Below, piece by piece: positions 16,901 to 38,471 of a stretch of 57,479 nucleotides of DNA. Origin of the DNA: Trichoplax sp. H2 (taxonomy: Eukaryota); the NCBI GenBank assembly GCA_003344405.1, contig NOWV01000117.1, forward strand, positions 186,001 through 243,479, in the 5' to 3' direction. Within the stretch, counting starts at the first letter, position 1; every line of letters starts with the position of its first letter. The notes below the pieces were generated by a model, which had not been told where the DNA came from, did not search any database, and was given only the letters and a program-made list of their open reading frames with translations. A program made the translations under genes and the position numbers.

Positions 16901-19138
16901 TAATCATGCGGTTGTGATGATTTTGTGGTGTATTTATTATACTATACTCGTACTTTATTATTGTTTGAACCGAATAAGTGCAGATGTGTTGTTTAGGAAT
17001 GATAAACTGAAATGTGCTATTTACTGATTACGAATAAATGTTGTCCTAACTTTGATCAATTTACAAGTTCTACAGTCGATGTAAAGGAAATAACAACATG
17101 TTATCCAAATAATGCCAATAGTAAGGCAAATAATACAAAGCATTATTATTCGGTAATTATATGCGCGTATGACTGGTATGGAGCCATACTGAATGATAAT
17201 TAATTATCATGATAGTAGAAAAGATTCTATGTAAATTACAGTCCAACAGACACTGGCTAGGGCTTCATACCAGGATTAAAAAGCTGTTAAGGATTAGCAG
17301 GAAAACGTTAAATTAAAACATAACAGTCTCGTCTAGTCGTTTCATCCATTTCTACCGTATTTTAACCTGTACTAAGGTTGTTTCTCACAGGAGAGAAATC
17401 GATACAACTATCCTATGTTGAATGATAACGAGAAAAGAAAAACCATAACTGGTGACGTTACAGTGGAAACCCTCGAGAGTCTCTCGAAGGTCTGTAGTGT
17501 GTTGTACCCTACTGTCAATAAATTTTGCATTTGCCGTTCGAATTTTCTAGTTATCGCTTCGTCGTAAGTGCAATTTCCACAGAATTACTGAGCCTTCAAC
17601 GAATCGTTTTCCTTTTATTTCATTGAACATCACTAAAAAAAGTTCTCAAACATACGTACGACTAGTCACTAAGATATCAAAAGTATAGTAGCTGCCATCG
17701 ACTACTTCAATCGCTTGTTGTCAACGGTATCCACCTGCACATTATCTAGTCTACGGGTATTCGAGATACAATATTTAGACTGGTACCAACAAGCCAGATA
17801 ACATTGGTATCTAAGCGTTCGATGGCGATAAGCCAATCCATTCTACTGTACAGTACAGAATTTTTTCATTAGGGCGTCAAAAATCTTCCAATTCATTACT
17901 TGGAAATACAATATTTCCTGATTTATAGGACCTTTAAGTATTGGTTTTACTTTTCTATTTTTTTCCTTGGTTAGCCAATGTTGTATAACATGGGCTTCAA
18001 TTCACTACAACATGACAGGAAAAAGATGACATGCTCTACTCAACAGTGACACCAGAAACGTTTGTAGAGAGATCGTTTATGCATTGAACTGAATGTCAAA
18101 CGATTTGACTTAATAATAATAAATATTATAATAATTATTATTATAATGAAGTCGTTGTTCAATAGTCGGGCGTGCCCGAATCACGATCACCACTGTCGAT
18201 GACCGCGAGTAGCGTTGGTTCGCCTATACTGAAGTCTTTGCGGCCAAAGTCAATTTGTTACTCTGGTCTTTCCGTGTAACGGCTACTGGGAGTGGTTAGT
18301 CCGTGCGTCAATAATTTATTGATCAGTCTAACCTTGGTGTGTCACTTTAACGCCATTTTAACTTGGAAAAGAAATGGTAGATATAATAATTATTAATGCC
18401 TACTACGTCAATTTTAATAAGGAAAAGTTGCCATTACTGTAACGCTCTTCATGTTTATAATCTTTCTTCACGGGTAGGCATTAGATCGAGCTAGGAGAGT
18501 TACTTATTAGTTCAAAGATGAGCGTAAAGCAGTAACATTGTTTATGACAATATTCGCCTTCATCGCAACCGTTTCAAGAGCTGTGCAAAGTACAGTAGAT
18601 GCTGTATGTAGGGCGTTTTACCGTCATCACTGTCGATACCATCTTATCAAGTTATCGATTCTAAGTGTGCAATAGTAATTTTTCGCTACACCGACCAAAA
18701 GTATTCAAATTGTACGATACTGTAGTGTATAATGTCGTAGAAGCAAACTGGATTACCTATACAGTATATATAAATTACATAGCATACTTGTCGATAGCAT
18801 ATCGATGCGACATGGGTGTTCGTCAATGACCAAGCGCAATTTTTAGAAAACAAATAAAAGAATCATTTTGTTTTTACCTTTGTATGAACTCCACTTGCAC
18901 TAGCAATATCTCGATCCCTTCGCTTTCCTTCACCACCAGGACTTTGAGATCTTCCCGATTCTTTATGAAGTGATTCCATGCTAACTGCTTCTACAGGCCT
19001 TGGATGCTCGCTCGATTTGAATCCAATCGGCGGATTCTTATCAGCAGAATGTGGTGATCCAACATCACTAAATCCCAAGGGACGAGAACTTCCAGAGTTT
19101 TTAAAGCCGATTTGGGGTGGCTCTTGTTGGTAGGACAT
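10988..19138 (-). CDS. ANO: Anoctamin/TMEM16 Ca2+-activated channel or scramblase (ANO1-7-like), about 27 exons
   Basis: ATG at 19138 (MSYQQEPPQ), first exon to 18878. Family motifs lie in successive exons: [129 protein letters not shown]...KREEYL. Last exon is 11134-10988 (TAA). The acidic/Asn Ca2+-site residues (NNxxE, EYLE, EIRLD) are intact. Paralogue not assigned. Confidence 0.96.
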
Positions 19139-19456
19139 CTTTGATAGCAAAGGCTGTCTGATCGTCTATTATGCGCGATACGATTGTAGAAAGAGATTCA
19201 CTGTTCACAGTTTTCAAAGTTATAGCTAATAGCCTTCTGTTCGTTGACAGTTAATACAGGTTAGATGAGAAACAAGTATAAGTGACAACTGTAGCGCAGT
19301 TGCCTGGAGAGGGTACTGTAAGTAGGTACAGATGTGACTCGATGTGACTGACAACTGGGTTTACAGAGCCTATACTGCTGACTAGAGAATAATGCTCTAC
19401 AGTACTACAGCGCTAGTTAGGTAACAAGTAAAGACTGGAAGTACCGTAGTTACACA

Positions 19457-20742
19457 TACTGTACACTGTACAGTACAGTACACTGTACAGTAAGCATGCA
19501 CAAATAAAGCGAGTGACTTATTGTATCAGCGACTAATTGCCCATGCGCATTTAAACGCAACTTGTGGAAGATCCACAGTATGGCAGGCATCGTACAGTAC
19601 AGTACTTACGGTAGATTACAGTAAAATGACAGATTCGTGTCAATGAACTCGTCTAGTACTATCGTTTGATATGCAATTTGTTCAAGTTCTGTACATTTTT
19701 TTTATTTTGTTGTAGTTCAAATCAGGAAAGATTTTCTCGGACACTTTGTAGAATGACTGGATAAATAGTCAGTTTCATCATTCTTGTACTGAACCTTGAA
19801 CTACTACTCTACTAGAAGAAGACCTGGACTGATCGCTCCCTCGAACAAATCAGGCTGTAAATGTTCCAAAATGACTACTTATTATGGATCTTCCCTGTTA
19901 GCTTTCTAAATTACCGGTACTAATTGAAATGATATCTATGATCTTATATAACTGTTTTCAAGCAGAACTTTGTAACAAATAAAAAGATCAAAAGATTCAA
20001 AGCAATATTACTTCTTTGAGAAAATATCCGCTCAATTCAAAATCGACCGACTTGTTACTAAAGTAGTGCAAAAACAAAGTGTTTGCCACACTACTTTGAC
20101 GTGATGAGTCCGAAAATGTCTGTCCGTCCAAGTGTGATAGTAGTCCATGACTGAACCAGGAACTACGCTACTTTAGTCGCTCAGTACTACAGTACTGTAC
20201 ACTAGGCCCAGCCATAATAACCCCGATTACTCAGATACTCAGCGTAAATAGCTTAAACGATGATACATTACTGTACACTGTACTGTACAGTATTGGATAC
20301 TAAAAGGAAAGAAAGAGGGACGTACAGTACAGTACAGTACAGTAAAGCGGCCCTCAGTGCAAAATAACGTGGAGGCCTATCATTTTCCGGTCATTCTACT
20401 GTACTGTACAGTACTGTACTACAGCATACGGTACCTATGAAACCGTATATCATACTGTACACTGAGTGTATAGGATGTCCAGTACTGTACAGTAGTAAGT
20501 AGTCTTAGAAGTAGCCGTACTGTACAGTACAGTACAGTACAGTACGTACAGTACAGTGTACCAGAGAACGGTACCGTCTGTACTGTACATTGTACTACTG
20601 CTAGATCAGAAGCATGTAGATCACATGACATATGCGCATGGATCACATGACATATGCGCATTTTTCTTGGTGCTACAGTATTGTACTGTACAGTACTGTA
20701 CAAAAAAACAACCTACCGTACAGTACTGTACAGTACAGTACT
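19457..20742. repeat. Clusters of (TACAG)n/(CTGTA)n pentamer microsatellite forming TACTGTACAGTA palindromes
   Basis: Runs at about 19457-19492, 19592-19604, 20183-20200, 20269-20292, 20322-20344, 20397-20420, 20452-20492, 20517-20600 and 20674-20742, in both orientations. Confidence 0.9.
20619..20661. repeat. Short tandem duplication (GATCACATGACATATGCGCAT)x2
   Basis: Exact 21-nt unit at 20619 and 20641 (period 22), embedded between pentamer arrays. Confidence 0.85.
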
Positions 20743-20872
20743 TTGCAATATTAACCAACAAGTGACAGGTACCAAGTTAATAAGCCTGTGCAAGTTTCTT
20801 TGCGGATGCCTTCAAGGTAAGCTAAAATGTTGCTACTGTCTCCAATTTTCATGCATACTTTCAGTCAATTTC

Positions 20873-21004
20873 TAGTTCTCTTCGTTCATTACAAGCAACG
20901 TTGCCAAATCCCATTCATTTTTATACAATCTGTTTCATTAGTTCTCTTCGTTCATTACAAGCAACGTTGCCAAATCCCATTCATTTTTATACAATCTGTT
21001 TCAT
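20873..21004. repeat. Perfect 66-bp tandem duplication
   Basis: TAGTTCTCTTCGTTCATTACAAGCAACG...CAATCTGTTTCAT at 20873-20938 and 20939-21004. Confidence 0.95.
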
Positions 21005-21120
21005 AAGACAAAAATATCTTACTTGTATAGCGTCGATAGATTTTAATGAACTCACTAGCTCGATATAAACTTCGCCGCTATCTGCTGGATATTGACTATT
21101 GTTGAGCACTGAATTCCATC

Positions 21121-21141
21121 ATGACGTAATTTAGCCAATCA
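21121..21141 (+). promoter_or_regulatory. Candidate bZIP (CRE/PAR-like ATGACGTAAT) site next to a CCAAT box, upstream of the amino-acid transporter
   Basis: ATGACGTAATTTAGCCAATCA about 570 nt upstream of ATG 21695. Motif match only. Confidence 0.35.
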
Positions 21142-21694
21142 AGAGAATGATTTAATTTTATTCACTCTATTTTGCATGCTTAGGATTCGTTAATTTAACC
21201 CTAGTAGTTTGTATATACTGTTAATTATAGAATATTGATCCTTTCTATTTGATAGACAGGAGTTTATGAAGAATTGATTTTTGGTGTTATTTTTTGTATA
21301 TACAGTACATTCAACACATACTCTACCACTACAGCATACTGTACAGTCGAGTACATGCTCCAATTGCTTTATCCTACTACATTGCTGGTTGAAAAGCCAG
21401 CCTAAAAATAAAATTATATTATACTAAGATAGATATTGACAGTAAAAAGATTAGCATAGGTGTACAGTATTACAATCTGTCAATTCGTAATCTCCTAATT
21501 GAATGGTGATACCGTTAAGGTGTTATTAATTAGCTACGCATGCAGATATTTTACAATTAATTATCCTTGCATTGTATTACAATATATATATAATTAATTT
21601 GAAACATACTGTATATCTGTTGATAATTAATTACTGCAGTGCTATCATTTTGTTTGTTACTTAGCTAGTGACTTGAATATCGTTAGTGATCTAA

Positions 21695-23854
21695 ATGACC
21701 GATTCGTCACCACATTCAAAGTTGGATTCACCAGAAGTATCTGCAATAGAAGAAATGTCTCAAGAAATGAACGTCATAGTACCGCCTACTGAAATAGCTA
21801 AAGGAATCGGTGTCGCCACAACCGCATTTTTTATTGTAGCAGAAATGGCTGGAAGTGGTGTGCTAGCTTTACCCAAGGCTGTTGTGGAAAGTGGCTATAC
21901 TGGTATCGGATTAATTGTTGTAGCTTCTATCATGTCTGCTTACACCGGCAAGATTTTAGGTAAATGACATAATAATATTTTAGGTTAAAATCAACCACAA
22001 ACTTCGCTAATTCAATGGTAGAGAAATATACGCGTACAATGGCTAGAATGTAGCAGAAGCACCACAGTGATAGTAGCACTATTAACATCATCCATTTCCT
22101 GCATTAGCAGCAAATTTTCATCAGTTGCTGGTGTTATGTATTTTGTGATAGACACACACTGTGAGTAAAAAATTGGATGTTTATAGTTTTCAGTACACGT
22201 ACAGTATGCACTTAGTATGCAGAACTTTATTTTACGCTATCGTATATACGCATACTTCATAATTGCTAACTATCTATTGTAACCTGGTTTGCTCCTACGG
22301 AGTGTGACTAGTTACAGCACTGTAAGTTGGAAAGTCTGCCGTTCGTTAAAATATTAAGCTACTGTATCACTAGTGCTACCGTTGCAAAATAAATGTCGCT
22401 ATATTTAACAGCATACTTGACGATGTTAGAGTATGCAATATAATCATTTATTGTCATTGATGTTTGTATGTTATTTGGTAGGTGATTGCTGGAATATTTT
22501 ATTAGATAAACTACCTCAATATCGAGAACATAATCGTTATCCTTATCCGTCGATTGGATACGAAGCAATTGGACCTGCTGGCAGATATCTAGTATCAATA
22601 TGTGTTAATTTAACACTTTTTGGAGTTGGTGTTGTTTTCTTAATCTTAGCGTCAAATAATCTGATATCTCTAATTGATACGCACAATATCAGTTACGCTG
22701 GCTGGCTAGCTATTTGCGCAGCATTTGTGACACCTTTAATGTGGTTTGGAACCCCAAAAGATTTTTGGTTTATTGGAATATTATCCGCAGCATGTACTAT
22801 CACTGCTGTTATTCTTATCTTTATCAATTTAATGCTAATCGCACCTGCACCACAAGACTTGGCTAGTGTCCCTCAAGCGCCAGTTACGTTTACATCCTTT
22901 TTCTTCGCCTTTGGTGCTATTTTATTCGCCTACGGAGGTCATGCGGCTTTTCCAACTGTTCAACATGACATGAGAGAACCATCTAAATTTAAACAATCAA
23001 TTCTCATTTCCTATACCACGGTCAATTGTCTATACCTCCCTATTGCTATAGCTGGATTTTTAATTTTTGGGAGAAATGCTGAAACTGCCGATATCTTGCT
23101 AACATTGAAGAAATCTGGTCGGGGAGGTGCTATACTTGCTATCGCTGAGGTTTTAATTACTTTACACGCTCTTTTTGGCTTTATTATTGTCCAAAATCCA
23201 TTAGCTCAAGAAATCGAAAATATTTTTAAAGTACCCAATAGTAAGTATAATTGAATGTGAATTATTTATGCTTAATTACTATATCAATCTTTTTTGGTTT
23301 AAGCGTTATTGTTCACTTTAGTAGCTATTAAAAAAAATGTTATCGTGATTGATTTTGACGTACTCGATTAGATACTGTAACCCTAAATCTTATAAGCCAT
23401 GTGCTTTTTTTTATGTACCGTATATGTAGTAAACCCGCAATTGTATTCTATGAAATGAAATGGCATTAGCTATCAGATGTGTTGCATGCAATTGCAGAAC
23501 AATTAATCATTCATTCAACATAAACTTTATCGCGTATAAATTTTATTCATAGAATTTTGCTGGCAGCGTGTTGTACTTCGTACTATTCAAGTTGGTGCTG
23601 TGCTTGGTCTAGCTGAAGCTGTGCCTAAATTTGGAGCAGTACTATCATTAATTGGTGGCTCAACTGTTACCGCTTTAACCTTCATCTTTCCATCTTTGTT
23701 TTACCTTATCTTAAAGAAAAAATTAGCTCGTAAGCCGATTTCCTTAGTTGAATATACCATCAATATAGAATTGATTGCAATAGGATTTTTGGGGGGTATT
23801 GCATCGACCTATTCCGCCATTGTTGGAATTGGAAAAGCTTTTGCACCAAAATAG
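21695..23854 (+). CDS. Amino-acid transporter, Aa_trans/AAAP superfamily, 3 exons, 441 aa
   Basis: Exons 21695-21959, 22482-23240 and 23553-23854 (phases 1 and 1, total 1326 nt). Motifs AGSGVLALPKA, YPYPSIGYEAIG, FAYGGHAAFPTVQHDMREPSKF and LSLIGGSTVTALTFIFP, with multiple TM helices. Confidence 0.95.
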
Positions 23855-37674: not shown

Positions 37675-38471
37675 CAACGCAATAAATTGCTAAGAGCAAC
37701 ACTTAAACCGTTGAAATTGTGGTACTGTAATGATGTACTATCAATGATTAGGATATTAGCAAACATTGCCCAATTATTTTTCGATGATATATGGGTTCAA
37801 TTATTGATGATAATCAATAAATAATTGACTTGTAAGCAATGTAAGAAACTGCCTAGAGCAAACTCCAGTCGTTCACACTTTTTATAGTATTATGATGCAC
37901 TACGTATGATCAGGATAACAACAAACAAATTTTCATTAATTTGTTTTAAATGACTACTCGTTACAATGGCGATCATACAAAACTTAAAACAACGTAGTAA
38001 ACTAGTAAGAGCAGAACGAAGTCATCAAAGCTCTATCATGTAGTAATTATGACCTGCCATAACGAGATTTTAGAGTAAAGGAATGTGATTGTATTCTTTA
38101 GCTCTGGGCACACGTTAAATGGACTTAAAATGATTGAAACTTATGTGTATAGTGTGATCACGGATATTACCAAACATAATTTTTGTTAAATGACTTATCG
38201 GTACAATCAAGATTATAACTTATGAATATAATGAGAAACTGCTAATAAAAGAATGCTTTCGATGTAGCAAATTTTTAAAAGATAAATCGCCTCTCCGATC
38301 TTAGGCCAGAGAAGGGGGCTCGTGCAAATGTCAGCAAAAACAGTATTGTAGTATTTCCACTGCAGTCTAATGATCGAGCAACTGCAACTGTACAGTATAC
38401 TGTAAACGGAGCTACTGATACAATGCAAAAGATATACTATCATAATGTAGTGAAATATTTACTTATTTTAC

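What the first reader, a model, noticed from the sequence alone, without database searches (positions are those of the whole stretch)
19457..20742. ACAGT pentamer arrays arranged as palindromes in a divergent promoter region
Seen: the pentamer is concentrated between the head-to-head anoctamin and transporter genes. It repeatedly switches strand, producing TACTGTACAGTA palindromes and a perfect 23-bp inverted pair (20397-20419 and 20718-20740) that brackets a duplicated GATCACATGACATATGCGCAT motif. From memory, ACAGT is reported as an over-abundant gene-associated microsatellite in Trichoplax. Simple slippage does not explain the strand switching. Inference: a promoter or chromatin landmark, multimeric site for a dimeric DNA-binding protein, or cruciform-forming element.
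Basis: partly seen in the sequence, partly recalled or inferred. Interest (0 to 1): 0.6.

Follow-up and report, generated by a model that had tools for sequence, protein, structure and literature searches.

The report
Known Trichoplax ACAGT promoter microsatellite cluster
This is a dense cluster of the already published Trichoplax ACAGT promoter-side microsatellite between two head-to-head genes; its palindromes arise by chance because the unit and its reverse complement differ by one base.

Summary
ACAGT/ACTGT units reach about 25 per kb in 19200-21400 against 3 per kb elsewhere. TACTGTACAGTA occurs 7 times against 0 in shuffles. The 23-bp inverted pair and the 22-bp duplication are exact.

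It is not new. Wang et al. 2010 described (ACAGT)n as the dominant, gene-upstream microsatellite of Trichoplax, and two arrays of this locus are rows 1498-1499 of their table.

The palindromes are incidental. ACAGT and ACTGT differ only at the central base. When the 44 central bases were permuted, the counts of junctions and palindromes and the longest inverted pair all matched chance.

One real oddity remains. Unit orientation here is close to random, with 5 switches in 13 adjacent pairs. In 114 metagenome loci with the same array it was 53 of 1043. The conserved feature is therefore GTAC every 5 bp, not a strand-specific ACAGT.

RNA contigs and the single strong splice donor place the transporter's transcription start at or just after the last array.

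The likeliest role is a strand-symmetric promoter or chromatin element. This is unproven.

The parts
18877..19292 (-). First exon of the minus-strand TMEM16/anoctamin-type gene. The 5' limit is the end of an RNA contig, not a mapped start site.
   Evidence: tables 5 and 8. RNA contigs X19 (18877-19292) and X16 (18877-19273) are joined to 16854 across a CT..AC intron of 2022 nt. The Wang table puts the gene model's 5' end near window position 19229.
19457..19492 (.). Array cluster nearest the minus-strand gene. It is made of ACWGT units with two ACAC variants. The in-phase runs read TAA (19465-19479) and TA (19482-19491).
19543..19550 (.). ATGCGCAT palindrome. It is one of 3 in the window, and all 3 lie in this intergenic region.
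   Evidence: 3 matches against an expected 1.0; 8 of 100 shuffles reach 3.
20189..20203 (.). Short array, centre pattern AT (ACAGTACTGT).
20269..20292 (.). Mixed array; its in-phase run 20277-20291 reads TTA. It contains TACTGTACAGTA.
20322..20344 (+). Homogeneous (ACAGT)4.6 array. It corresponds to the published row scaffold_3 2520794-2520816.
   Evidence: period 5, 100% matches; row 1498, 23 bp, TMEM16 gene.
20397..20420 (.). Mixed array, centre pattern TTAT. It is the left arm of the 23-bp inverted pair.
   Evidence: (I11).
20482..20494 (.). Isolated TACTGTACAGTA palindrome.
20517..20557 (+). Longest array, centre pattern TAAAA, then a 4-nt unit, then AA. The part 20517-20545 matches the published row scaffold_3 2520988-2521016.
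   Evidence: (8.4 copies), (row 1499, 29 bp, amino acid/polyamine transporter gene).
20566..20600 (.). ACGGTACCGT (centres G and C) followed by degenerate TGTAC units.
20619..20661 (+). Perfect 22-bp tandem duplication of GATCACATGACATATGCGCATG. Each copy carries an E-box-like CACATG and an ATGCGCAT.
   Evidence: The motif names are recalled, not tested.
20671..20742 (.). Two arrays whose 25-nt arms are 96% complementary across a 16-nt A-rich spacer. This is the most stable local hairpin. The right-hand array also forms the right arm of the 23-bp pair.
   Evidence: I7 and I11.: -23.4 kcal/mol, z -7.06 against dinucleotide shuffles. P 0.042 against permutation of the centre bases, as one of 4 segments tested.
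20754..20817 (+). Inferred non-coding first exon of the amino acid transporter gene. Its start could lie further 5', inside the last array.
   Evidence: the only GT[AG]AG donor between 20700 and 21662 is at 20817|GTAAGC. RNA contig X19 carries 64 unplaced nt 5' of the acceptor at 21663. The placement of those 64 nt is inferred, not shown.
21663..21956 (+). Second exon of the transporter gene, with the ATG at 21695.
   Evidence: table 8: X19 and X16 contigs both break at 21663; an acceptor-like pyrimidine tract ending in TAG. Aa_trans hit.

Best explanation
What it is. The interval is one locus of the published Trichoplax (ACAGT)n microsatellite class. About a dozen short arrays are packed into the roughly 1.45 kb between the 5' ends of a head-to-head TMEM16/anoctamin gene and an amino acid transporter gene.

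Why it looks palindromic. The unit is quasi-palindromic: ACAGT and its reverse complement ACTGT differ only at the centre. An array is therefore better written (GTACW)n. At this locus the centre is A or T almost at random while the GTAC frame stays intact. The 12-bp palindromes, the 23-bp inverted pair and the hairpin potential follow automatically from that; they are not separately built features.

How it probably works (inferred, not shown). I read the arrays as a strand-symmetric promoter-proximal element. An undetermined factor would read the 5-bp-periodic GTAC frame, and this would mark or keep open the shared promoter region of both genes. The transporter's transcription start would lie at the edge of the last array. 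Short arrays are gained and lost in 5-bp steps by slippage. The centre toggles between A and T, either because it is unconstrained or through hairpin-templated (quasi-palindrome) replication errors.

Confidence by part. Identity as the known class: about 0.9. Palindromes incidental: about 0.8. A cis-regulatory role: about 0.45.
For: Identity.
- Wang et al. 2010 report that ACAGT makes up 78% of pentanucleotide repeats, and that 54% of arrays lie within 1 kb and 85% within 5 kb upstream of genes (passages).
- Rows 1498-1499 of their Additional file 5 list a 23-bp and a 29-bp array on scaffold_3, beside a TMEM16 gene and an amino acid/polyamine transporter gene.
- The window's arrays at 20322-20344 and 20517-20545 have the same lengths. 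The start-to-start spacing is 195 bp here against 194 bp in the table.
- The listed distances (1104 and 1156 bp) land inside the RNA-supported exons 18877-19292 and 21663-21956.
- About 3,900 DNA contigs per run lie on the arrays. Depth reaches 30,582 against about 60 elsewhere, so the arrays recur genome-wide.

Palindromes incidental (2000 permutations of the 44 ACWGT centres in 19400-20800).
- Switch junctions: 12 observed against 11.8 expected.
- TACTGTACAGTA: 6 against 4.9 (P 0.33).
- Longest perfect inverted pair: 23 against 21.3 (P 0.41).
- Best local hairpin under permutation of the centres: P 0.21.

GTAC frame fixed, centre free.
- Of 26 in-phase unit pairs, 14 differ at the centre.
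- Only 1 next-unit carries a single mismatch at position 2; 7 carry the recurrent ACAC variant.
- G or C at the centre: 7 of 62 units, against 32% expected from base composition (p 1.9e-4).

Unlike ordinary slippage arrays.
- In 114 metagenome loci found with the orientation-blind pattern ACWGT x4, 184 of 216 arrays are homogeneous.
- 53 of 1043 adjacent pairs switch there, against 5 of 13 in the window (Fisher p 3.9e-4).

Promoter position.
- RNA contigs of two runs end at 19292 and 19273 for the minus-strand gene.
- Both break at the acceptor at 21663 for the plus-strand gene. One of them carries 64 more 5' nt.
- The only GTRAG donor upstream is at 20817, 75 nt after the last array.

Turnover. 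5 of the 12 listed indels between runs are exactly 5 nt and sit at ACWGT sites (table 4; 4 more indels were not shown).

Chromatin link. A preprint reports repeating ACAGT among the motifs that change predicted Micro-C maps in Trichoplax.
Against: - No experiment or read-level data here shows protein binding, accessibility or a mapped start site. All runs were assembled contigs, which cannot show 5' ends.
- The 64 nt of the RNA contig were not placed by the tool, so exon 1 and the start site are inferred.
- The orientation statistics rest on one locus (13 to 28 unit pairs).
- When only arrays of 4-5 units are compared, the difference is weak: 1 homogeneous and 3 mixed here, against 108 and 28 there (p 0.034).
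- T-to-A junctions outnumber A-to-T by 11 to 4 in the window. A purely random-orientation reading does not predict this, although the difference is not significant.
- The network result may only reflect that the arrays sit at promoters.
- A neutral mutational origin explains the same facts without any function.
Confidence: 0.55

Rival explanations
1. Neutral by-product. The arrays have no function. Open, transcribed promoter DNA favours slippage and hairpin-templated errors. Those errors seed and extend GTACW repeats and flip their centres between A and T.
For: - 5-nt indels at ACWGT sites separate closely related runs, including sites in the transporter's introns (table 4).
- The centre changes almost only between A and T. 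Template switching on a self-paired array would do exactly this (7 of 62 centres are G or C).
- The orientation pattern is indistinguishable from random.
Against: - The GTAC frame is nearly free of substitutions while the centre is randomised. Old neutral repeats should decay at every position.
- Elsewhere such arrays stay homogeneous.
- Strong upstream enrichment is published.
- The two catalogued arrays have the same length in the 2008 assembly's table and in this window. At this low divergence that is weak evidence.
Confidence: 0.25
2. The 12-bp palindrome TACTGTACAGTA is the functional unit, a site for a dimeric DNA-binding protein, and it is present in multiple copies.
For: - 7 copies against 0 expected from composition.
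- T-to-A junctions outnumber A-to-T by 11 to 4 in the window, and all 3 two-unit palindromic (mixed-orientation) sites outside the cluster are of the T-to-A type.
- The background hexamers do not explain this: TGTACA 19 against AGTACT 26 outside the region.
Against: - Against orientation-shuffled arrays there is no excess: T-to-A 8 against 5.9 (P 0.17), and the 12-mer 6 against 4.9 (P 0.33).
- The 11:4 split is not significant by my own hand calculation (two-sided binomial p about 0.12; no tool call).
- The longest arrays are mostly one orientation (AAAA, TAAAA).
Confidence: 0.1
3. Cruciform or hairpin element. Inverted arrays extrude under the negative supercoiling that builds up behind the divergent polymerases.
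For: - 20677-20701 and 20718-20742 pair over 25 nt across a 16-nt A-rich spacer.
- Folded as a single strand this gives -23.4 kcal/mol, z -7.06.
- The pair sits directly upstream of the inferred start site.
Against: - The stability is a property of any neighbouring (GTACW)n arrays. Permuted centres still give a mean of -18.2 kcal/mol.
- This segment reaches only P 0.042 as one of four tested, and the region-wide test gives P 0.21.
- The 23-bp pair has a 298-nt spacer.
- A single-strand fold does not show extrusion from duplex DNA.
Confidence: 0.05
4. Transposon footprints. The arrays are remnants of terminal inverted repeats of promoter-targeting DNA transposons, for example the Mutator family that Kim et al. 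2025 link to placozoan promoter hubs.
For: - Kim et al. report Mutator insertions, and a motif derived from their terminal repeats, at looped promoters (passages).
- The preprint says a repeating ACGG motif belongs to that element.
- ACGGT and ACCGT units sit in frame with arrays here, at 20568 and 20715, and next to arrays at other loci glimpsed (tables 5c and 7).
- Inverted pairs are present.
Against: - I see no target-site duplication next to the 23-bp arms (read by eye).
- The sequence between arms has no second copy in the window.
- The terminal-repeat consensus is not available as text, so likeness could not be tested (2 of 6 supplementary files are pictures).
- Inverted pairs of this length are expected by chance.
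Confidence: 0.08
5. Initiator-like core promoter. Each ACAGT offers a CA(+1)GT start site on its own strand, so mixed arrays act as dispersed bidirectional start sites.
For: - The last units before the inferred plus-strand exon are ACAGT in the sense orientation (20730-20739).
- An ACTGT at 19314 (ACAGT on the minus strand) lies 22 nt beyond the end of the minus-strand RNA contig.
- The CAGT initiator core is recalled from fly and human work, not tested here.
Against: - Near the minus-strand gene most units are in the plus orientation.
- Most arrays lie hundreds of bp from either transcript end.
- Contigs cannot show 5' ends.
Confidence: 0.08

Closest known systems
Trichoplax adhaerens (ACAGT)n microsatellite class (Wang et al. 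2010, Biol Direct 5:18, PMC2871265)
   Same: - Same unit and the same short arrays of 15-29 bp.
- The same habit of several arrays clustered within about 1 kb upstream of genes (part 1 of Additional file 5).
- Two arrays of this very locus are listed there.
   Different: - The catalogue lists only 2 of the dozen or so arrays here. The mixed-orientation ones are missing.
- The passages I read do not discuss orientation or palindromes.
- The listed distances (1104 and 1156 bp) are to gene-model starts. With the 5'UTR exon inferred here, the nearest array is within about 12-75 bp of the transporter's transcript start.
Repeating ACAGT and ACGG motifs recovered from Trichoplax Micro-C by the Chimaera network (bioRxiv 10.1101/2024.11.14.623548), and the Mutator-derived promoter-hub motif of Kim et al. 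2025 (PMC12221973)
   Same: - The same pentamer is reported as affecting predicted contact maps.
- ACGGT and ACCGT units occur in the same 5-bp frame at this locus.
   Different: - I saw passages only. The motif logos are in figures that are not held.
- Whether ACAGT goes with insulation or with fountains is not in the text I read.
- No locus-level chromatin data were available.
Ordinary (ACAGT)n slippage microsatellites and satellites in other organisms (114 metagenome loci)
   Same: The same unit, tandem and in phase.
   Different: - There, 184 of 216 arrays are of one orientation and 5.1% of adjacent pairs switch.
- There, the fixed positions decay about as often as the centre.
- Here, about half of the adjacent pairs switch and the GTAC frame is intact.
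Quasi-palindrome template-switch mutagenesis (Ripley model; recalled, not looked up)
   Same: It would change only the mismatched centre of a self-paired (GTACW)n array, turning A into T or T into A. Only that position varies here.
   Different: It predicts more perfect palindromes than random, and that was not seen. It is a mutational process, not a function.

Membership tests
Trichoplax (ACAGT)n gene-upstream microsatellite (Wang et al. 2010) | Tandem ACAGT units of at least about 15 bp | tested here: met
   20322-20344 has 4.6 copies at 100% and 20517-20557 has 8.4 copies. In-phase runs are listed.
Trichoplax (ACAGT)n gene-upstream microsatellite (Wang et al. 2010) | Lies within 1-5 kb upstream of a gene's 5' end | tested here: met
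   All arrays lie between the RNA-supported exon 18877-19292 (minus strand) and exon 21663-21956 (plus strand). The table gives 1104 and 1156 bp.
Trichoplax (ACAGT)n gene-upstream microsatellite (Wang et al. 2010) | The locus is present in the published catalogue | tested here: met
   Rows 1498-1499 match the window's arrays in four respects:
- the neighbouring genes (TMEM16 and an amino acid/polyamine transporter);
- the array lengths (23 and 29 bp);
- the spacing (194 against 195 bp);
- the distances to the genes.
Palindromic binding-site array for a dimeric factor | Palindromic junctions in excess over arrays with shuffled unit orientation | tested here: not met
   12 against 11.8 junctions (P 0.54); 12-mer 6 against 4.9 (P 0.33). 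This is one locus only.
Palindromic binding-site array for a dimeric factor | A protein that binds the palindrome | not testable with these tools
   Needs a pull-down or DAP-seq.
Cruciform-forming inverted repeat | Long, near-perfect arms with a short spacer | tested here: inconclusive
   The 23-bp pair has a 298-nt spacer, so it does not qualify. The pair 20677-20701 / 20718-20742 has 25-nt arms and a 16-nt spacer, but it is no better than expected from permuted centres region-wide.
Cruciform-forming inverted repeat | Extrusion from supercoiled duplex DNA | not testable with these tools
   Only single-strand folding was possible.
MITE / Mutator-type element bounded by terminal inverted repeats | Target-site duplication flanking the inverted arms | tested here: not met
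   The flanks of 20397 and 20740, read, share no direct repeat.
MITE / Mutator-type element bounded by terminal inverted repeats | Internal sequence repeated elsewhere; arms resemble the family's consensus | tested here: inconclusive
   There is no second copy in the 57-kb window. No whole genome is held. The consensus is not available as text.
microRNA precursor hairpin | Rfam match at the gathering score | tested here: not met
   The best of 13 matches is mir-4703 at 32.2 bits against a gathering score of 88. All 13 are below threshold, and most (all but the weakest) lie on inverted arrays.

The most novel reading that the evidence does not exclude
The functional unit of the placozoan 'ACAGT microsatellite' is not ACAGT. 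It is a strand-symmetric (GTACN)n platform in which only the palindromic GTAC core at 5-bp spacing is constrained.

The same frame would also hold the ACGG-type (ACGGT/ACCGT) motif that others tie to Mutator ends and to promoter hubs. One lineage-specific architectural or promoter factor would then read both motifs. That factor would set open, insulated and often bidirectional promoters, with transcription starting at the array edge.
Probability: 0.18. Interest if true: 0.6.

Novelty: already known. Interest (0 to 1): 0.25.

Why it matters
The element class has been in print since 2010, and this locus is in that paper's table. The finding therefore adds no new kind of element.

Three modest points come out of the re-examination.

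1. The eye-catching palindromes and inverted pairs of these arrays need no special explanation.
2. At this locus the arrays behave as GTAC repeats at 5-bp spacing with a free A/T centre, unlike same-unit arrays elsewhere. Any search for the still unknown reader of these repeats should therefore use strand-symmetric probes and motif models.
3. The published array-to-gene distances are probably overestimates where a 5'UTR intron exists.

The function of the most abundant repeat in placozoan promoters remains open. It is testable with published ATAC and Micro-C data.

Tried and rejected
- Whole-genome test: no genome is held for this window. The enrichment and orientation tests could be run only on this window and on metagenome loci.
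- Earlier notes of this scan: no note on ACAGT by words or by sequence.
- Literature. Four full-text searches found only Wang 2010 and the Chimaera preprint dealing with this motif in placozoans (Trichoplax+ACAGT, placozoa+ACTGTA, placozoa+microsatellite+ACAGT, Trichoplax+ATAC-seq+promoters+motif enrichment). Searches gave nothing relevant. One search was a primer hit only.
- Kim et al. 2025 supplements: no Mutator terminal-repeat consensus as text; 2 of 6 files are pictures. The link between ACSGT units and that motif therefore stays untested.
- RNA families: only sub-threshold microRNA-like hits on the inverted arrays. No tRNA genes.
- Transposon structure: self-BLAST and a repeat search of 19600-20215 gave no convincing terminal repeats or extra copies.
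- The RNA and DNA runs were all assembled contigs.
  - No start sites, strand or expression level can be read from them.
  - DNA contigs break inside the main arrays, so array lengths could not be compared between the two organisms, except at small flanking sites.
  - The stretch 19293-20938 has no listed locus-specific RNA piece. The table is truncated, so this says nothing about silence.
- TCACATGA is not enriched: 3 matches against 2.5 expected.
- Hairpin stability against permuted centres is not significant region-wide.
Full report
OBSERVATION

- The window (57,479 bases, 32.5% G+C) holds 112 ACAGT and 110 ACTGT. Of these, 31 and 24 fall in the 2.2 kb from 19200 to 21400. That is about 25 per kb, against about 3 per kb in the rest of the window.
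- Of 17 in-phase runs of two or more ACNGT units in the window, 14 lie between 19465 and 20739.
- The 12-mer TACTGTACAGTA occurs 7 times (six at 20281-20735, one at 17844). It occurred in none of 100 dinucleotide-preserving shuffles.
- The pair 20397-20419 / 20718-20740 is 23 nt, perfectly complementary, with 298 nt between the arms (I11).
- The 22-bp unit at 20619-20661 is duplicated without a mismatch.
- The flanking genes are as stated. Minus-strand ORFs hit the Anoctamin family, and plus-strand ORFs from 21695 to 23851 hit the amino acid transporter family Aa_trans.

IT IS A KNOWN ELEMENT, AND THIS LOCUS IS CATALOGUED

Wang et al. 2010 (PMC2871265; abstract and passages read) report the following for Trichoplax adhaerens:
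- pentanucleotides are the commonest microsatellites;
- 78% of them are ACAGT;
- 54% of ACAGT arrays lie within 1 kb, and 85% within 5 kb, upstream of a gene.

The authors suggested a transcription-factor site.

Their Additional file 5 has 5,258 data rows. I read part 1 of 53 and searched the rest by term. Part 1 shows that several short arrays per promoter is the usual pattern.

Rows 1498 and 1499 list scaffold_3 2520794-2520816, 1104 bp from a TMEM16 gene, and 2520988-2521016, 1156 bp from an amino acid/polyamine transporter gene. The window's arrays at 20322-20344 and 20517-20545 have the same lengths (23 and 29 bp). Their starts are 195 bp apart, against 194 bp in the table. Converted to window coordinates, the two listed gene starts fall at about 19229 and 21686, inside the exons that RNA contigs support (see below).

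Only these 2 of the dozen or so arrays are listed. The mixed-orientation arrays are not.

Notes from earlier sessions call this genome Trichoplax, in places Trichoplax sp. H2. I did not test the species label beyond the match to the table.

THE PALINDROMES ARE INCIDENTAL

ACAGT and its reverse complement ACTGT differ only at the third base. An in-phase array of either is therefore a run of GTAC separated by one A or T. Every place where neighbouring units differ at the centre is a 10-bp palindrome, and any two arrays are near-complementary.

I permuted the 44 central bases among the ACWGT units of 19400-20800, 2000 times.

| Measure | Observed | Permuted mean | P(>=obs) |
|---|---|---|---|
| Switch junctions | 12 | 11.8 | 0.54 |
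| ACTGTACAGT | 8 | 5.9 | 0.17 |
| ACAGTACTGT | 4 | 5.95 | not in excess |
| TACTGTACAGTA | 6 | 4.9 | 0.33 |
| Longest perfect inverted pair (arms at least 20 nt apart) | 23 | 21.3 | 0.41 |

For the palindromes and the 23-bp pair, it does.

Hairpin potential behaves the same way.
- The best local hairpin is 20670-20750, with 25-nt arms and a 16-nt spacer. It folds at -23.4 kcal/mol, z -7.06 against dinucleotide shuffles.
- With permuted centres the same segment still averages -18.2 kcal/mol. The observed value has P 0.042, as one of four segments tested.
- The best hairpin anywhere in 20180-20760 has P 0.21.

WHAT IS UNUSUAL: THE CENTRE IS FREE AND THE FRAME IS NOT

A slippage-born microsatellite should be of one orientation. 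To see what such arrays look like elsewhere, I scanned public metagenome contigs with the orientation-blind pattern of four ACWGT units. This returned 114 loci.

| Comparison | Metagenome loci | This window | Test |
|---|---|---|---|
| Arrays of four or more units, homogeneous | 184 of 216 | 1 of 4 | n/a |
| Adjacent pairs that switch | 53 of 1043 (5.1%) | 5 of 13 | Fisher p 3.9e-4 |
| Arrays of 4-5 units only, homogeneous vs mixed | 108 vs 28 | 1 vs 3 | p 0.034 |

Counting two-unit runs as well, 15 of 28 A/T unit pairs switch in the window (counts).

Position by position:
- At this locus, 14 of 26 in-phase neighbour pairs differ at the centre. Only 1 next-unit has a single mismatch at a fixed position, plus 7 cases of one recurrent ACAC variant.
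- In the metagenome arrays, 615 next-units carry one mismatch at a fixed position, and 169 of 1511 pairs differ at the centre.
- The centre here is G or C in 7 of 62 units, against 32% expected from base composition (p 1.9e-4).

No inversion of DNA is needed, however. A single A/T change at the centre flips the apparent strand. The conserved feature is GTAC every 5 bp.

One loose thread remains. T-to-A junctions outnumber A-to-T by 11 to 4 in the window, and all three two-unit palindromic (mixed-orientation) sites outside the cluster are of the T-to-A type. The background hexamers do not explain this: TGTACA 19 against AGTACT 26 outside the region. The difference is not significant. By my own arithmetic the two-sided binomial p is about 0.12 (no tool call).

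POSITION RELATIVE TO TRANSCRIPTS

All available runs were assembled contigs. They can show splice joints but not start sites.

Minus-strand gene. RNA contigs of two runs cover 18877-19292 and 18877-19273, and both join to 16854 across a 2022-nt CT..AC intron. The first array (19457-19492) is therefore at least 165 bp upstream of the known transcript.

Plus-strand gene.
- Contigs of both RNA runs break at 21663, after a pyrimidine tract ending in TAG.
- They carry 64 and 21 further 5' nucleotides that the tool did not place. A non-coding first exon therefore exists.
- The only GT[AG]AG donor between 20700 and 21662 is at 20817.
- A low-depth RNA contig covers 20939-21257 plus 31 further nt, as an intron would.

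If the donor is right, exon 1 reaches back at least to 20754, which is 12 nt after the last array ends at 20742. This is an inference. If it holds, the published distance of 1156 bp overstates the array-to-start distance by more than a kilobase.

GENOME-WIDE RECURRENCE AND TURNOVER

About 3,900 DNA contigs per run lie on the arrays. Summed depth there reaches 30,582, against about 60 in the flanks.

Five of the 12 listed indels between the runs and the window are exactly 5 nt and sit at ACWGT sites: 19521, 21300, 21337, 21607 and 22199 (four more indels were not shown). Units are therefore still being gained and lost in 5-bp steps.

MECHANISM

Shown:
- a catalogued promoter-side microsatellite cluster;
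- a fixed GTAC frame with a free centre;
- incidental palindromes;
- both transcript 5' ends beside arrays.

Published:
- strong upstream enrichment;
- a preprint in which a network trained on Trichoplax Micro-C finds repeating ACAGT and ACGG motifs that change predicted contact maps. The ACGG motif is attributed there to a transposable element linked to insulation (passages only);
- Mutator-derived motifs at looped promoters (Kim et al. 2025; passages only).

Inferred: the arrays act as a strand-symmetric promoter or chromatin element that is read through the GTAC periodicity. I put this at about 0.45.

The main rival, at about 0.25, is a functionless by-product of slippage plus hairpin-templated errors in open promoter DNA. 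That rival would also explain why only the centre toggles between A and T. It does not explain why the frame stays clean.

The dimer-site, cruciform, transposon-footprint and initiator readings are each at 0.1 or below, for the reasons given under rivals.

ACGGT and ACCGT units sit in the same frame as the arrays, at 20568 and 20715. This hints that the two published motifs share one frame. I could not test it, because the Mutator consensus is held only in figures.

VERDICT

The element is already known, and its most striking features are a by-product of the unit's near-symmetry. The orientation mixing is a small, locus-level addition that deserves a genome-wide test.

Noticed in passing
window 20873-21004: A perfect 66-bp tandem duplication in the inferred first intron of the transporter gene. 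DNA contigs of both organisms (X1, X3) and an RNA contig (X16) appear to carry only one copy (table 8). It is either a polymorphism or an assembly difference.
   Followed up: partly
window 19543-19550, 20632-20639, 20654-20661: All 3 ATGCGCAT palindromes of the window lie in this intergenic region (expected 1.0; 8 of 100 shuffles reach 3). Two of them are copies from the 22-bp duplication, which also carries an E-box-like CACATG. They may be ordinary factor sites of the shared promoter. A likeness to NRF1-type sites is recalled only.
   Followed up: partly
window 21118-21150: TGACGTAA (CRE-like) and AGCCAATCA (CCAAT-box-like) lie 10 bp apart inside the inferred first intron of the transporter gene. 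They could mark an alternative promoter or an intronic enhancer. The motif names are recalled.
   Followed up: no
window 17970-18629: RNA contig X19 record 14 differs from the window at 34 letters in 660 nt. The DNA contigs of X1 and X3 are nearly identical to the window there (tables 3 and 8). It may be a divergent haplotype or a related strain in that RNA sample.
   Followed up: no
window 18877-19292: The contig for the first exon of the minus-strand gene has a much higher depth (571 in X16, 172 in X19) than neighbouring RNA contigs (about 20). Contig depths are poor measures of expression, so this is only a flag.
   Followed up: no
window 19885-20111: DNA contigs of both runs break here, and summed depth is about 6 times the flanks (349 against about 60 in X1, tables 2 and 8). 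This suggests a dispersed repeat other than the arrays. No second copy is present in the window.
   Followed up: partly
window 17844-17855, 21338-21347, 38387-38396: Isolated ACTGTACAGT palindromes outside the cluster are all of the T-to-A type. The one at 21338 is one unit shorter in run X3 (table 4).
   Followed up: partly
L004, L009, L023, L056, L061, L105 and other metagenome loci: Long homogeneous (ACAGT)n arrays of up to 19 units, and dense multi-array satellites, exist in public metagenome contigs from unknown organisms. The unit itself is therefore not peculiar to placozoans.
   Followed up: partly
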